From assembly GCA_963741205.1 (NCBI GenBank), contig CAVUHW010000020.1:160001-224000 (forward strand): a stretch of DNA of 64,000 nt. The letters run 5' to 3'. The notes under the pieces are model-generated. The model made no database searches, was not told where the DNA came from, and saw only the letters and a program-made list of their open reading frames with translations. The translations under genes were made by a program, and so were the position numbers. Positions 4,897-55,301 of this stretch are shown piece by piece. The number at the start of each line of letters is the position of its first letter. The first letter of the stretch is position 1. The DNA comes from Nitrospirota bacterium (lineage in GTDB: Bacteria > Nitrospirota > UBA9217).

Positions 4897-5050
4897 ATGA
4901 ACTACCCGCCACTGAGCCAATTACATGGTTGCAGTGGGGGTTTCACGGATCATAGAAGCATGCAGTCCCTGAGTAGTTCCCAAGGCCTGTCTTATCTGCT
5001 TCTCCCCGCGCGTGACTTCGGCCGGTTCCCGGCCTAGTGTTTCCTTCTTC
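4897..5050 (-). ncRNA. Putative TnpB omega/reRNA scaffold overlapping the tnpB 3' end
   Basis: By analogy with TnpB systems: ggccgggaaccggcc hairpin and terminal gaaacccccactg...cagtggcgggtagttcat hairpin. The 5' boundary is approximate. Confidence 0.6.
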
Positions 5051-7985
5051 CTTAGCCGCATGGCGCGTTTCCTATGCTTTACGGTGATTTCGCCAGATAC
5101 GAGCATTTCTATGCCGCGCTTCTTGATAACGAGAGACGCATTGGTATCGGCGTTTTCCGTAAAGCCACAGCTCTGGCAATCGAACACCGCCTGTGACTGG
5201 CGATTGTCCGGGTGAGTGTGCGAACACTTCGAACACTCCTGTGAGGTGCCGTGCGGCGGTATGGCGATAACGAGCTTGTTGCGTCGTGAGGCTTTGTACG
5301 TCGTAAAGAGTTTTACCTTGCCCCACGCTGATTCGAGTATGGACTTGTTGAGACCGGCCTTGGCCTTTGCCCCGTTCGGAATATACGTCCCGCCGGCCGA
5401 CTTCTTAGGTTTTGGCGCTCTGGTCATGTTCTTGACCTTGAGGTCCTCGAAGACGAACACCTCCGCGGGTGAATCCACGAGCTTGCGGCTGGCCTTATGC
5501 GCGAAATCATGCCTCACATTGGCAGCATACGCCTGGCACCGGGCTGATTTCGCTGCTGATTGCTTAAAGCGGCCGGATCCTTTGATCCGCCTCGCCAATT
5601 GCCTCTGATATCTCTTCTTCCGGGCATCCTTTTTTGCCAGACGCTCTTTTTGGATGCCGGAGAAGTCATGCACCGAGCCGTCGCTTGTTGCCAGCGGGAT
5701 TACAACCCCTCGGTCCATTCCCAGGGTAACGGTATTAAGACTCTCTGAAGACATGCCGCCGTAAAGCTCGAGAAGTTCCTGCTCGCTCAAAACTGTGCCT
5801 TGCTTCTCATAGGAGAAGGAGACATACCATTTCCCGGACTCCCGGGAAATGGTGATGGCCGCCGGAATCTCGTACTCGTCGTGAGCCTTGAACTTAAGTT
5901 CGCCCAGATCGACCGACTTTGTGCCAAGCATCAGCCGGTGCTCATATATTGTTTTGTCCTGCCGCTGTTTTGAGCCTCCAGTAGGAACGAACCTGAATAG
6001 CTCGCTGGTAATCCAGACGGACTGCCGCCCCGCCTTCTTTTTATAAGCAGGGCGACCAGCCAGTCCTGTCAGGTACCTCTTGTAGGAGCCCATGAACCTG
6101 GTTGCGCCGTTTCTTAGCACCTGTGACGGCACATCGTAGAGCTTGCTATATTGTAGAAAGTAGCTAAGCCCAATAAAAAAGGCTATACTCACTTTCTTGA
6201 TTTGGAACCAGCTGGGGAGTTGGTAAATCCAAACCATAGAAAGGAGCATAGCCGTGAAAAGGATTAAACCAAAAAAGACCAGAGCGGTCAATCAAAATGT
6301 TCTTATCGCCACCGTTGACGGAGGCAAGGACACTCATTACGGATATTACCGCTGTCCTGATGGCACCGACTGCAAAGCGTTCGACTTTTGGAACAATGGA
6401 CGCGGCTTTCAAGAGTTTTGGGAGCGTATCTCGTCGGCAGCCAAGAACCCATGGTCTTGAAGAAATAATCGTTGGCTTTGAATCCACCGGGCCATACATG
6501 GAACCCTTGACGCAGTTTCTGAGAAGCAAGAAGGGCGTCCGGCTGGTGCAGGTCAACCCGATGCACACGAAGCGGCTGAAGGAGCTTTCGGGCAATTCGC
6601 CGCTCAAGACCGACCGGAAGGACCCGAAGGTCATTGCAGACATCATCGAACTTGGCCATGCTCTGACCGTGGTGATCCCCGAGGGAGCCGGCGGCAGAGC
6701 TTCGAAGGCTCACTCAGGGCAAGAGAACGAACGATTGAAAGCCGTACGAGGTTGTTTAATCAGCTGCAGAGTCTCCTGGTGATCAGCTTTCCCGAGTTTT
6801 TGCAGGTGATGAAGGATGTGAAGACCGCGAGCGCCCAGCACCTTTTGCGGCATTATCCGACGCCGCAGGACATTGTGGCTCTCGGAGAATCCGCCCTGGC
6901 TGCTTTACTCCGAAAAGTCAGCCGGGGGAAGCTTAGAGAAGACCGTGCCAGAGCGCTTTTTGAGGCCGCAAGCGAATCGGTCGGCCTTAAGGATGGTCGC
7001 AGAGCAGCATGCTCCTTGAGATCGAACTGATGCTTGATACCATAGCCACCTATGAGCGTTTTATCGAAGGTTTTGAGACTGAGATGTTGCGGCATCTGGA
7101 ACAGATTCCGTACAGCCGACGTGATTCTTTCGCTTAAAGGGATCGGCACGGTCACTGCAGCGGGGCTGATCGGCGAAGTAGGAGATTTCAGCAAGTTCGC
7201 CACCATCTCCGAGGTGATGAAACTTGCCGGGCTTGATCTGTATGAAGTCAGCTCGGGGAAACACCGGGGCAAACTTCGTATCTCCAAGCGAGGCAGGCCG
7301 CTTATGCGAAAGCTTCTGTACTTCGCGGCTCTTGAGCACTGTCCGGAAGGGCGGCGTGATGCATGAGTGGTATCAGCGCGCCCTGGGCCGGGGCATGATT
7401 AAGACCAAGGCCTTGGTGGCGGTCAGCCGGAAGCTTTTGGGAATTATTTTTGCTTTGGTACGTGATCATAGTGTTTACGTAGAGAACTATGCGAAACAAA
7501 AACCGATTTTACAGGAGGCTGCTTAAACTAAGACGATCGTTGCGTGTAAGCGGGGAGATTATCGTTCGCTTCATCTAAGGCGGCTATGCCGACCTTCTCA
7601 TAAAGCCTACATAACTCCCCGCTTGCACCTTATTTCCAATAAAGCAAGATCAGGGCTCTGTAGAGACCCTTTAAACCAGAGTTGGAAAAGGTGCCGCACT
7701 CAAAGATCAATATCTCTTAAAAAGCAATGCCTCTAAAAAAAGTACTTGACAAAAACAAACCAGAAACGGAGTGAGATCCTTGTCCTTAAACTGGGCGTAT
7801 TGCTGATCAATCGGCGGCTGTAGTCCGGTCAGCGACAGTGAATGATTCCGGAAAGTACGGAAATAACGCTCTTCGGCAACCTTGGCGTTGTAGATAAACC
7901 GCTGGCAGCCCATCCACTGCGCGAGAATATCGGACTGCTCCGTTGTCGGGTAGCAACGGAATTTTATGCCGCTTGAAATCGCCAC
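4921..7985 (-). CDS. tnpB: RNA-guided endonuclease TnpB split by IS110 (join 7985-7764 + 6141-4921 = 480 aa)
   Basis: HTH start KFRCYPT, RuvC motifs GMDRG, VFEDL and NADTNAS, zinc finger CSKC/CQSC. Joining across the IS110 restores PF|LYDV in frame. Confidence 0.92.
6254..7526 (+). CDS. IS110-family DEDD recombinase/transposase (several frameshifts)
   Basis: VDGGKD, FESTG, VNP, KTDRKD, GIG.VTA and SSG...ISKRG motifs across consecutive frames. Confidence 0.9.
7544..7694 (+). ncRNA. Putative bridge/seek RNA in the IS110 right non-coding end
   Basis: Two consecutive stem / internal loop / hairpin modules. The second loop contains agcaag and aaaccag, matching both sides of the circle junction. 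Confidence 0.75.
7746..7751 (+). promoter_or_regulatory. -35 box of the IS110 circle-junction promoter (pairs with TATATT at 6147-6152)
   Basis: Circularisation gives TTGACA-17 nt-TATATT with a TG extension. Confidence 0.85.
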
Positions 7986-8272
7986 ATCTCTAATATAGGT
8001 GATGAATCCTGATAGTGCAACTGAATAATACGCTGTAGCCATCGGTACTATATTATAAGATTGCATATCGTTTCGTAGCACAGACAACGCACCAATCCAC
8101 ATCCAAAACAGTCCGCTTGACCCCCTCCTGACGCTTCGCCCCTAGCAGGGGGAATGCGCGGACTTTGTTCAGGATGGGCAGGCTTGAGGAGAAACTGGCG
8201 GAAGGCCTCGGCTGATTCGCACAACGTTAAAATGTTATTCGGCGCGCCCCGCCCATCGTGTATAATACCCGC

Positions 8273-53563: not shown

Positions 53564-55301
53564 CTACCAGTTGAAGACCTTGTCCAGGTCCTCGTCCTTG
53601 ACGCCGAAGGTGACGTTGTGCGGGGCGAACTTCTCCGTCTTGAAGAAGTCCGGCAGCCGGTCGTGCTGGGGCGTGAAGCCCGCCCGCGCATTGAAGTCCC
53701 GCTCCATCTTGAGGACCTTCTTTCCGAGGTCGGTCACGCCGTCGGCTGTCAGGTTCAGCCCGTAGAAGGAATTCAGAAGATCGAGAAGGGCCTGGAACGT
53801 ATCAGGCTGATCGAGTATGGCAAAAGCAATGAAAAGGCACATTCCGGTGGAATCAATCGCCGCGGTCGCGATCTGGAGGTTCCGCGAAAGTTCCACCTGC
53901 CCTTCGGGCTTGAGCGCGTTCACATCGCCGCCCACCTTCAGCACGTTCTGGGCCACCGCGTAGCCTGCGGTATGGTCCGCTCCCATGGGGCTCGTTGCAT
54001 AGGTAACGCCGATCCCCTGGACAGCACGGGGATCATAGGCCGGCATCGCCTGGCCTTTGACCACCGGCACCCGCTCGACGCCGAAGACCTTGCCGGTGAC
54101 GGCTGCGCCGCTGCCGAGGATCCTGCCGAGGTACGTGCCCTTGCCGACCTCGTGTATGAAATTGATCGCCGCGTCCGCGTCGCCGAACTTGGCAAGACCT
54201 GCCTCCATGGCGACCGCGATCGTCGCTCCCAGCTCGATCGTATCGACGCCGTAGGTGTCATCCAGAAAATCCATCATGGCGATCTTGTCCATGTCGCTGA
54301 TGCCGCAGTTACCGCCATGCGCCCAGACGGTCTCGTACTCGGGCTGCTTGGTGAGATAATGGCCATCCTTGTCATTGAAGGTGCCGGAACACTGGATGAC
54401 GCAGCCGCGGTGGCAGCCATGGGTCGGGTTCGCCCCGCGCTGTTTCTCTGTTTCCGCCAGCGTTTCGCCGCTGATCTTGGATGCGCCGTCGAAGCGGCCC
54501 TGCTTGAAGTTGTAGGTGGGATAGCCGCCGACCTCGTTCAGGATGTTGGTCAGCACGTTCGTGCCGAAGGCCGGAAGGCCTTGGCCGGTGACCGGATGTT
54601 TCTTCAGGCCTTCGACGAACCGCTTGTTGGCGTCCTGGAACTTTGCCGGGTCCTTGGGCGGCCGCACCGGCATGCCGGTGGCATCGAGAACGATGACCTT
54701 GATGTTCTTGGCGCCCATGACCGCACCCAAGCCCCCGCGTCCGGCGTGGCGGGTCGGCCGAAGCTCCATATCGGTGAACGCGACGGTGGCGGAAGCCATC
54801 TTCATCTCTCCGGCAGGTCCGATCGAGATGCAGCACATCTTGTCGCCGTACTCCTTCTTCATCTTTTCGACCAGATCGTAGTTCGTCAGCATCTTGAGGC
54901 TGTTGTCCTTCGTGATCTTGACCCCATCCTTGTTGATAAACACCTTGTACAGGTCGTCGCTCGTCGGTTTCCCTTCGAGCACGATGGCGCCGTAGCCGAG
55001 CTTTGCAATGACCTGGGAAGCCTGTCCCCCGGAGTTCGCCTCCTTGATGCCCCCGGTAAGCGGGCTCTTGCCGCCCACGGAGATCCGGCCCGACTGAGCG
55101 CCCGCGGTCCCGCTCAGAAGTCCCGGAGCTATCACAAGCTTGTTCTCCGCGCCCAACGGATGGCAGAGGGGCGGCACTTCCTTCGAGACAATCGCCGAGG
55201 TCATGGCCCTGCCCCCGAACCCCGCGTACTCTCCGATCGGCGTCTTCTCTGGCCGTCGGACCTCCTTCTGCTCCCACATTAATGCGCAAAATCTTGTCCA
55301 T
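53564..55301 (-). CDS. aor: Tungsten-type aldehyde:ferredoxin oxidoreductase (frameshift near 55260)
   Basis: MDKILRIN, KSPLTG..KE.N.GG, GRGG.GAVMG.K, C..GC.I.C, EYET, DD.YG.D.I. Confidence 0.95.

What the first reader, a model, noticed from the sequence alone, without database searches (positions are those of the whole stretch)
7527..7763. Bridge-RNA-like ncRNA in the IS110 right end with donor guides readable by eye
Seen: the 235-nt non-coding right end folds into two modules. Module 1 is a 14-bp stem (7544-57 with 7615-28) around an internal hairpin. Module 2 is a stem (about 7628-39 with 7682-91) around hairpin 7652-70. In the CT-core orientation the circle junction is AGCAAG-CT-GGTTT. 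Module 2 carries AGCAAG (7643-48, same sense as the left donor flank) and AAACCAG (7673-79, reverse complement of core plus right flank), in the left-guide/right-guide order of bridge RNAs. Module 1 has TCATAAAG (reverse complement CTTTATGA), a 6/8 match to the target's CTCTACGA, and only a partial CGTT match on the left. Established: IS110/IS1111 recombinases use such RNAs. Inference: a programmable recombinase variant with the RNA downstream of the gene and the core in antisense orientation.
Basis: partly seen in the sequence, partly recalled or inferred. Interest (0 to 1): 0.78.

Follow-up and report, generated by a model that had tools for sequence, protein, structure and literature searches.

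The report
Bridge RNA gene in IS110-family element
The non-coding right end of a small mobile element carries the gene for a two-loop guide RNA of the kind that steers IS110-family recombinases to their insertion site, in a layout that has already been described, so it is a well-supported but ordinary example.

Summary
Window 6142-7763 is a 1622-bp IS110-family element inserted at an AG (CT on the other strand) inside a TnpB gene. Empty paralogous sites and public contigs fix the ends. Its 3' non-coding part (RNA core about 7544-7697, + strand) folds into two stem / internal-loop / hairpin modules. The same RNA follows the recombinase gene in relatives from several phyla. In 25 distinct sequences, 27 of 41 pairs show compensatory changes. 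The loops of module 1 covary with each element's own flanks (0 of 20,000 permutations reach the observed match). Module 2 matches the element's two ends, with compensatory changes in two relatives. This is therefore a bridge/seek RNA with a target loop followed by a donor loop. An RNA downstream of the gene with reversed guide order is the published IS1111-type layout, not a new variant. The recombinase, however, is long (about 420 aa), lacks the 11-13 bp subterminal repeats, and aligns along its full length with IS116/ISBth13 rather than IS4321. It is therefore an IS110-type protein with an IS1111-type layout, a combination the literature notes only as an exception. The window copy's recombinase gene has six frame changes, so it is either a relic or a misassembly. 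Its target guides match its own site only 6/8 and 6/8. Interest is modest.

The parts
6142..7763 (+). Whole IS110-family element, 1622 bp counted with the right-hand AG copy. The left-hand AG copy of the core is at 6140-6141.
   Evidence: Empty paralogous sites. Contig joints 6139>7762 skipping 1622 in X2 and X3.
6142..6152 (+). Left end. CTTGCT (6142-47) is complementary to the left donor guide. TATATT (6147-52) is a -10-like hexamer.
   Evidence: The left end is preceded by AG in 32 of the 34 entries examined.
6254..7526 (+). Recombinase (DEDD transposase) gene, about 419 codons. It is readable only by changing frame six times, near 6450, 6687, 6718, 7000, 7118 and 7331.
   Evidence: Three-frame translation and segment translation. 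The paralog on contig C14 has PF01548 + PF02371 and scores 207.6 bits on NF033542 against a cut-off of 140.
7544..7697 (+). Bridge/seek RNA gene. This is the conserved structured core; the true 5' and 3' ends are unknown.
   Evidence: Model R1 scores 168 bits on the + strand. The consensus structure has 41 pairs, 97.3% of cells paired and 27 pairs with compensatory change.
7548..7624 (+). Module 1, the target-binding loop. Outer stems are 7548-56/7616-24 and 7559-62/7611-14. The 5' loop strand is 7563-76, carrying the left target guide at 7565-72. The capping hairpin is 7577-96. The 3' loop strand is 7597-7610, carrying the right target guide plus core at 7598-7605.
   Evidence: Column-to-coordinate map. 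Guide/flank permutation test.
7625..7694 (+). Module 2, the donor-binding loop. The outer stem is 7625-40/7681-94. The 5' loop strand is 7641-52, carrying the left donor guide AGCAAG at 7643-48. The hairpin is 7653-69. The 3' loop strand is 7670-80, carrying the right donor guide AAACCAG at 7673-79.
7698..7745 (+). Variable spacer between the RNA and the right end. Its length and sequence are not conserved in relatives.
7746..7763 (+). Right end. It holds the -35-like TTGACA (7746-51) and AAACCAG (7757-63, including the AG core). After circularisation, TTGACA, a 17-nt spacer and TATATT form a junction promoter.
   Evidence: The right-end pattern was found in 30 of the 34 entries examined.
4921..6141 (-). 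C-terminal part of the interrupted TnpB-like gene, which is the target.
   Evidence: PF07282 and PF01385. Intact paralogs at 89-97% identity elsewhere in the genome.
7764..8102 (-). N-terminal part of the same TnpB-like gene.
   Evidence: PF12323. The reading frame continues across the empty site.

Best explanation
Window 7544-7697 (+ strand) is the gene for the guide RNA (bridge RNA / seekRNA) of an IS110-family element spanning 6142-7763. Shown from sequence: the RNA has two modules, and each is a stem enclosing an internal loop capped by a hairpin. In module 1, the 5' loop strand has the sense of the reverse complement of the right flank, covering 7-9 nt plus the first core base. The 3' loop strand has the sense of the left flank, covering 6 nt plus AG. 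The two strands of this loop can therefore pair with opposite strands of the target on either side of the CT/AG core. In module 2, the 5' strand is complementary to the element's left end and the 3' strand repeats its right end, so it can hold the circle junction in the same way. Inferred from the published IS621, ISEc11 and ISEc21 systems: the element excises as a circle. The joined ends create a TTGACA-17-TATATT promoter that drives the recombinase gene, with the RNA at the 3' end of the transcript. The RNA is then processed and binds a recombinase tetramer. The RNA aligns the donor junction with the target, and strands are exchanged at the 2-nt core. The layout is the IS1111 type: the RNA lies downstream, and the match to the top strand lies 5' of the match to the bottom strand. 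The recombinase itself resembles the long IS110/IS116 type and lacks long subterminal inverted repeats. The window copy is probably inactive as assembled, with six frame changes. It sits at a near-cognate site rather than a perfect one.
For: The fold is better than all 200 shuffles, z = -5.44. A genome-collection scan returned 34 relatives. I examined 32 of them (L063 and L064 are fragments), and 31 carry the same RNA directly after the recombinase gene. After dropping 7 exact duplicates and L047, and adding the window and the C14 paralog, 25 distinct RNAs were aligned. The consensus structure has 41 pairs. 27 of them show changes on both sides, and 97.3% of cells are paired against 32-52% when partners are slid. 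0 of 500 shuffles reach any of the five measures. G-U pairs and the model score fix the strand: 168 and 165 bits on +, and the only minus-strand match (at the C14 copy) 26 bits. Guide/flank test on 18 distinct guide sets (of the 26 element-site pairs scored): the 5' loop scores 104 against a permuted mean of 73.3, and the 3' loop 76 against 37.2. 0 of 20,000 permutations reach either value, with or without wobble. Clear single cases include the C14 paralog (CATCCT and AGTTCAG), L037 (9 nt), L052 (9 nt), L034 (8/8) and L041 (8/8). Donor loop: AGCAAG and ACCAG are conserved together with the ends. In L057 both guides and both ends carry the same C-to-T change. In L060 the right guide and the right end do. 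The AG core precedes the left end in every entry with a left end. Protein: Pfam PF01548 + PF02371 and NCBIfam 'IS110 family RNA-guided transposase' at 207.6 bits. The layout matches the literature.
Against: There are no direct expression data. Contigs from one metatranscriptome (X20) lie on 7513-7637 and 7674-7763, but they come from relatives, and the tool warns that DNA may be present in such libraries. No promoter-like site lies directly upstream of the RNA. The RNA ends are unknown. The window copy's guides fit its own site only 6/8 (5' loop) and 4/6 plus AG (3' loop), and three of the four mismatches are not wobble pairs. Several relatives fit poorly in one loop, for example L044 at 1/6, L032 at 2/6 and L050 and L056 at 2/6. 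Two relatives have a mismatch in the left donor guide (L045, L048). The recombinase frame is broken six times here and once in the C14 copy. Rfam has no family that matches, so membership cannot be tested against a curated model.
Confidence: 0.85

Rival explanations
1. The element is simply a deep-branching member of the IS1111 group proper, so nothing about the pairing of protein type and layout is unusual.
For: The RNA lies downstream and the guide order is as in IS1111 (PMC11187229 sections 6, 9). Durrant 2024 states that RNA location closely predicts the IS110/IS1111 split. The AU test does not reject a tree in which IS116, ISBth13 and two own-genome paralogs form one side, which leaves this clade with the IS4321 side (p-AU 0.145).
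Against: No 11-13 bp near-perfect subterminal inverted repeat is present. The best 10-nt windows give 5-8 matches in all 20 elements with both ends. The recombinase is about 420 aa, against 330-350 for IS1111 (for the published range). An intact relative aligns with IS116 over 406 residues (E 5e-18) and with ISBth13 over 387 (E 8e-45). It aligns with IS4321 only over the C-terminal 142 residues (E 2e-6). The best tree puts the clade on the IS116/ISBth13 side (supports 96/86 and 92/87). Only one IS1111 anchor (IS4321) and one named IS110 anchor (IS116) were available, and both sit on long branches.
Confidence: 0.25
2. The conserved 3' structure is a cis-acting element, such as a terminator or mRNA stabiliser, or a set of protein-binding DNA sites. 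It is not a guide RNA, and the loop matches are incidental.
For: There are no expression data. The structure lies in a 3' untranslated position, where stabilising structures are common.
Against: A cis element gives no reason for the loop sequences to follow each element's own flanks (0 of 20,000 permutations) or to change together with the element's ends. No terminator-like site was found on the + strand in 6100-7800. Compensatory changes that keep G-U pairs point to RNA rather than duplex DNA.
Confidence: 0.04
3. The guide-like matches in the window are chance.
For: The matches are short (6-8 nt), and two of the four are imperfect.
Against: The same positions carry matching guides in relatives that have different flanks. 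The fold z-score and the covariation also argue against chance.
Confidence: 0.01

Closest known systems
IS1111-type seekRNA / bridge RNA (ISEc11, ISPa11, ISKpn4; Siddiquee 2024, Durrant 2024)
   Same: The RNA is encoded in the long non-coding region downstream of the recombinase gene. The segment complementary to the top strand lies 5' of the segment complementary to the bottom strand. The -35 is in the right end and the -10 in the left end, so they form a promoter at the circle junction. Insertion is site-specific without a long duplication.
   Different: The recombinase is about 420 aa rather than 330-350. There are no 11-13 bp subterminal inverted repeats. Similarity to IS4321 is confined to the C-terminal domain. 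I did not compare the RNA with an IS1111-type RNA. Model R1 found nothing in the three other IS110-family paralogs of the same genome that the tree places on the IS4321 side (L067, L069) or that were not placed (L075).
IS621 bridge RNA (IS110 group; Durrant 2024, Hiraizumi 2024)
   Same: There are two internal loops, with the target loop first and the donor loop second. Each loop pairs with both DNA strands on either side of a 2-nt CT core. The left guides have the sense of the DNA and the right guides are its reverse complement.
   Different: In IS621 the RNA is upstream of the gene, and the guides are read in the orientation of the gene. Here the RNA is downstream, and the guides are read in the opposite orientation. 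The IS621 protein is 328 aa in the solved chain, and only its C-terminal part matches (E 4e-12). In most relatives here the 5' target strand matches the flank plus the first core base, followed by an unmatched A before T.
IS116 and ISBth13 (closest named recombinases found)
   Same: Similarity runs the full length of the recombinase (24-28% identity). They fall on the same side of the best tree. Protein length is similar (400 and 397 aa).
   Different: In the annotated records only 63 and 94 nt separate their stop codons from the next gene, while 213 and 297 nt lie upstream. Their long non-coding part can therefore only be upstream.

Membership tests
IS110 family (DEDD RNA-guided recombinases) | Recombinase with an N-terminal DEDD domain (PF01548) and a C-terminal Transposase_20 domain (PF02371) | tested here: met
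   The C14 paralog scores 74.3 and 76.4 bits and 207.6 bits on NF033542 against a cut-off of 140. The window copy shows the same protein in pieces.
IS110 family (DEDD RNA-guided recombinases) | Site-specific insertion at a short core, with no long target duplication | tested here: met
   A 2-nt AG lies at both junctions, supported by 15 empty sites and joints in public contigs.
IS110 family (DEDD RNA-guided recombinases) | Structured non-coding RNA with one loop matching the target and one matching the donor ends | tested here: met
IS110 family (DEDD RNA-guided recombinases) | The RNA is made, binds the recombinase and is required for transposition | not testable with these tools
   Only weak cover by metatranscriptome contigs of relatives.
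IS1111 group | Long non-coding region and RNA downstream of the recombinase gene | tested here: met
   The left non-coding part is 112 nt and the right is 237 nt. The RNA follows the stop codon in 31 of the 32 relatives examined.
IS1111 group | The top-strand match lies 5' of the bottom-strand match in the RNA | tested here: met
   The 5' loop strand is complementary to the coding strand of the right flank. The 3' loop strand is complementary to the other strand of the left flank.
IS1111 group | Subterminal inverted repeats, usually 11-13 bp and perfect or near-perfect | tested here: not met
   The best 10-nt windows give 5-8 matches in all 20 elements with both ends, and 6 in the window copy.
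IS1111 group | Recombinase related across its full length to IS1111-type recombinases, 330-350 aa | tested here: not met
   Tested against IS4321 only. The alignment covers just the C-terminal 142 residues. The protein is about 420 aa. The tree places it on the other side, but the AU test is not decisive (p 0.145).
IS110 group in the narrow sense (IS621 / ISEc21 layout) | RNA upstream of the gene, with the bottom-strand match 5' of the top-strand match | tested here: not met
   Model R1 finds no second copy of the RNA in the element.
Rfam RNA families | Match to a curated covariance model | tested here: not met
   There were 5 matches at E up to 10 in 5800-8200. All were far below their gathering scores, and none lay on the + strand of 7527-7763.

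The most novel reading that the evidence does not exclude
This clade, with its Bacillota sister clade, is a lineage of long IS110/IS116-type recombinases without IS1111-type inverted repeats that nevertheless carries the RNA at the 3' end with reversed guide order. If so, guide order is tied to the position of the RNA in the element, not to the IS1111 protein type or its repeats, and the flip of the gene-plus-RNA cassette relative to the ends either happened more than once or predates the split. In addition, the window RNA may be tuned to a different site. One perfect 15-nt match to the site its guides specify exists elsewhere in the genome, where about 0.008 is expected by chance. That would make the TnpB insertion a near-cognate capture.
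Probability: 0.35. Interest if true: 0.5.

Novelty: new member of a known kind. Interest (0 to 1): 0.33.

Why it matters
It adds a well-documented natural family of bridge RNAs. There are 25 distinct sequences from Nitrospirota, Planctomycetota, Thermodesulfobacteriota, Bacteroidota, Ignavibacteriota and others. Element ends, empty sites and many natural retargeting events are all defined. This could serve as a comparison set for working out guide rules in the less-studied 3'-RNA layout. It also gives a concrete example of the exceptions Siddiquee 2024 mentions, in which an IS110-type protein has a 3' non-coding region. It does not change the picture of how these systems work. A preprint of October 2026 (10.64898/2026.10.21.760802, passages read) already clusters recombinase-adjacent RNAs at large scale and reports covariation with target and donor.

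Tried and rejected
The Rfam scan of 5800-8200 at E up to 10 gave nothing relevant. The promoter and terminator scan found no promoter-like site just upstream of the RNA and no + strand terminator. Model R1 was run against 12 further loci: other IS110-family paralogs of the same genome, the Rossellomorea and Lachnospiraceae relatives and a Klebsiella plasmid locus. It matched only L047, which keeps module 1 alone, so the model does not reach beyond this clade. Public runs: the best holder has only 0.22 of the sampled words, and all four runs laid are contigs of relatives 88-99% alike. They cannot decide whether the six frame changes in the window are real. Parts of the stretch without cover in those runs were not interpreted. 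A tblastn search with IS4321, meant to find more named IS1111-type anchors, was saturated by IS4321/IS5075 copies and gave no further anchors. The Klebsiella plasmid hit H51 had no annotation under the match and was not used. Sites scoring 13/15 and 14/15 for the guide-specified target (10 and 1 found) are within chance expectation, and the two I looked at are not in TnpB genes. The idea that the frameshift in the C14 copy is programmed was dropped, because the 93% identical relative L032 reads straight through. Supplementary files of the two 2024 papers were not seen. These include the ISfinder-wide trees and tables, which may already list members of this clade.
Full report
OBSERVATION. The 237-nt stretch 7527-7763 folds at -70.3 kcal/mol into the two modules described. 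Shuffles average -46.5, giving z = -5.44, and 0 of 200 fold as well. Rfam holds nothing that matches it.

THE ELEMENT. A search of the window's own genome with 6100-7800 found the locus itself, one 69% identical paralog on contig C14, and 28 short matches to the two flanks. The short matches belong to paralogous TnpB genes in which the two flanks are contiguous. 15 such empty sites were read. Together with the filled site, they place the insertion between ...GTAG-AG and AAAC..., with AG on both sides. The element is therefore 6142-7763, 1622 bp with one AG. Contigs of public soil runs X2 and X3 join 6139 to 7762, skipping 1622 bases, with two letters that fit either side. The interrupted gene is a TnpB-like gene on the minus strand (PF12323, PF01385, PF07282).

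On the + strand the element carries a left end with TATATT (6147-52) and a recombinase gene (6254-7526). It then carries the non-coding region and a right end with TTGACA (7746-51). Joining right end to left end gives TTGACA, 17 nt, TATATT. This is the junction promoter described for this family (PMC11187229 section 12; PMC12288879 passages).

THE RNA IS CONSERVED AND STRUCTURED. A scan of one genome per species with the C14 recombinase returned 34 loci, mostly from metagenome-assembled genomes of Nitrospirota, Planctomycetota (Scalindua), Thermodesulfobacteriota, Glassbacteria, Bacteroidota and Ignavibacteriota. I examined 32 of them, because L063 and L064 are fragments without a 3' end. 31 have the same sequence pattern directly after the stop codon, and L062 does not. 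After dropping 7 exact duplicates and L047, which lacks module 2, and adding the window and C14, 25 distinct RNAs were aligned.

RNAalifold gives 41 pairs in five helices. On that structure, 97.3% of cells are standard pairs and 27 pairs have changes on both sides. 0 of 500 shuffles reach any of the five measures. Sliding the partners by 1-3 columns drops pairing to 32-52% and leaves 3-10 pairs with changes on both sides. Many pairs pass through G-U. A covariance model scores 168 and 165 bits for the two + strand copies in this genome; its only minus-strand match, at the C14 copy, scores 26. The RNA is therefore read from the recombinase strand.

Each module is an outer stem, an internal loop and a capping hairpin. 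Window coordinates are in the parts list.

THE LOOPS ARE GUIDES. In every member, the 3' strand of the module 1 loop starts right after the hairpin and ends in AG eight bases later. Its first six bases were compared with the six bases left of the element. The 5' strand was compared with the reverse complement of the right flank plus the first core base, with three registers allowed for cognate and control pairs alike.

Over 18 distinct guide sets, the cognate sums are 104 (5' strand) and 76 (3' strand). The permuted means are 73.3 and 37.2. 0 of 20,000 permutations reach either value, and the same holds with wobble allowed.

Some cases are clear by eye. The C14 paralog has CATCCT and AGTTCAG for a completely different site. 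L037 and L052 match 9 nt, and L034 and L041 match 8/8 in the 3' strand. Others fit poorly in one strand, such as L044 at 1/6 and L032, L050 and L056 at 2/6. The window copy scores 6/8 (7/8 with wobble) and 4/6 plus AG. That is close to the cognate averages of 5.8 and 4.2 and above the permuted averages of 4.1 and 2.1.

In module 2, the 5' strand carries AGCAAG, the reverse complement of the first six bases of the element. The 3' strand carries ACCAG (AAACCAG in the window), which repeats the last bases of the element. Both are almost invariant, as are the ends. In L057 both guides and both ends carry the same C-to-T change. In L060 the right guide and right end do. L045 and L048 each have one uncompensated change in the left donor guide.

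COMPARISON WITH WHAT IS KNOWN. Durrant 2024 defines the target and donor loops. The left guides pair with the bottom strand and the right guides with the top strand, and the core is included in each. The paper also reports that IS1111-group elements carry the RNA in the right end. Siddiquee 2024 reports that the non-coding region is downstream in IS1111-type elements. [quoted passage not shown]

In the present family the 5' guide is complementary to the coding strand and the 3' guide to the other strand. This is the IS1111 order.

WHICH GROUP. The protein is an IS110-family recombinase. Against the IS1111 definition, two features are met: the downstream RNA and the guide order. Two are not met.

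- No 11-13 bp near-perfect subterminal inverted repeat exists. The best 10-nt windows give 5-8 matches in all 20 elements with both ends.
- The recombinase is about 420 aa. It aligns with IS116 over 406 residues and with ISBth13 over 387, but with IS4321 only over the C-terminal 142.

The best tree of 26 recombinases puts the clade, together with a Rossellomorea plasmid relative and a Lachnospiraceae relative, on the IS116/ISBth13 side. It lies away from IS4321 (supports 96/86, 92/87, 99/97). The anchors sit on long branches. An AU test does not reject the alternative in which IS116, ISBth13 and two own-genome paralogs form one side (p 0.145).

In the annotated records, IS116 and ISBth13 have room for a long non-coding part only upstream. 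The Rossellomorea relative has up to 449 nt downstream. Siddiquee 2024 notes that some IS110-type elements have a 3' non-coding region. In the sections and passages I read, I found no description of their guides. The supplements are closed.

My searches were 'IS1111' with 'bridge RNA', 'seekRNA', and 'bridge RNA', 'IS110', 'downstream of the', 'phylogen'. A preprint of October 2026 clusters recombinase-adjacent RNAs at scale and reports many covariance models that covary with target and donor (passages). This clade may well be among them.

STATE OF THE WINDOW COPY. The recombinase can be read only by changing frame six times. Contigs of relatives 88-99% alike lack one base at 6686/6688, 6717/6720, 7118/7119 and 7331, and two bases at 7000 and 7002. 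Relative to them, the window carries extra bases at five of the six places. Those contigs come from relatives, not from the same copy. I therefore cannot tell a decayed copy from assembly error.

The C14 copy has one frame change that its 93% identical relative L032 lacks. Several other IS110-family matches in this genome are also interrupted. The RNA stems of the window copy are intact.

A BETTER SITE ELSEWHERE. A script combined the two target guides of the window RNA into the 15-nt site they specify and scanned the whole genome. The actual insertion site matches 11 of 15. One perfect match exists, at G000:C8:54923-54937, where about 0.008 is expected for a 15-mer in 8.5 million positions. 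There was also one site at 14/15 and 10 at 13/15, which is about what chance gives. The perfect site lies in an ORF that resembles a metallo-beta-lactamase-fold protein, not a TnpB. The four differences between that site and the TnpB site are all transitions. This is a lead, not a result.

VERDICT. The finding is real and correctly read. It is a new, well-supported member of a known kind of system. The combination of protein type and layout is of some interest to specialists.

Noticed in passing
L044:2255-3601, L046:2255-3607, L038:2013-3425 (minus strand); also L033, L041, L054: A stop-free reading frame of 430-479 codons runs antisense to the whole recombinase gene in six relatives. The three sense codons whose reverse complement is a stop (TTA, CTA, TCA) are depleted in the core clade. 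L044 has 0, against 17.5 expected from A-ending codon use elsewhere; L046 has 0 against 18.4; L033 has 1 against 14.0. The outlying members L057, L058, L060 and L043 are not depleted. Flanking host ORFs of L044 and L046 use these codons for 25-26% of Leu+Ser codons. There is no Pfam match. The window copy has 2 of 75 against a host rate of 6.4%, which is not informative. This could be an overlapping antisense gene or another constraint.
   Followed up: partly
G000:C8:54923-54937: A perfect 15-nt match to the site specified by the window RNA's two target guides. It is unoccupied and lies inside an ORF resembling a metallo-beta-lactamase-fold protein. About 0.008 such matches are expected by chance.
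   Followed up: partly
G000:C8:54098-55250: The ORF holding that site is split over two overlapping frames (54098-54934 and 54552-55250). This hints that the assembly has indel errors or that the genome has pseudogenes outside mobile elements too.
   Followed up: no
window 4921-6141 and 7764-8102; G000 contigs C4, C15-C18, C20, C26, C28, C30, C34, C35, C43, C47: The interrupted TnpB-like gene belongs to a large paralogous family in this genome. 15 empty sites were read, and several full-length copies are 89-97% identical. Only this one carries the element.
   Followed up: partly
G000:C41, C5, C9 (L069-L071): Three copies of another IS110-family element of about 1.63-1.66 kb. Its recombinase frame is 372 codons, and about 470 nt of non-coding DNA lie downstream. 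In the tree it falls on the IS4321 side. Model R1 did not match the one copy that was searched (L069). In all there are 19 matches to NF033542 in the genome.
   Followed up: partly
flanks of L033, L041, L044, L046, L048, L051, L054: The targets of many relatives look like short imperfect tandem repeats. An 8-nt word of the type GCGCAGAG or GCGCAAAG lies to the right of the element, and a similar word lies to its left. I did not determine what these repeats are.
   Followed up: no
L047:3617-3740: This relative keeps module 1 (the target loop) but not module 2. The sequence after module 1 is unrelated. Model R1 scores it 61 bits.
   Followed up: no
L066:1174-1184 and 2688-2698: In the Rossellomorea plasmid relative (about 33% protein identity by blastp), an 11-nt stretch of the 3' non-coding region repeats a stretch about 115 nt upstream of the recombinase start. 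It is a candidate guide/left-flank pair in the sister clade.
   Followed up: no
window 6206-6213: The leader of the recombinase gene contains AACCAGCT. These are the same eight bases that span the circle junction, and they sit within the palindrome CCAGCTGG (6208-15). The C14 copy differs by one base.
   Followed up: no
window 7513-7637 and 7674-7763: Contigs of one soil metatranscriptome (X20) from relatives lie on the RNA region and on the recombinase gene (6558-7502). One contig departs from the window just 5' of 7604, within the right target guide. This is weak evidence of expression.
   Followed up: partly
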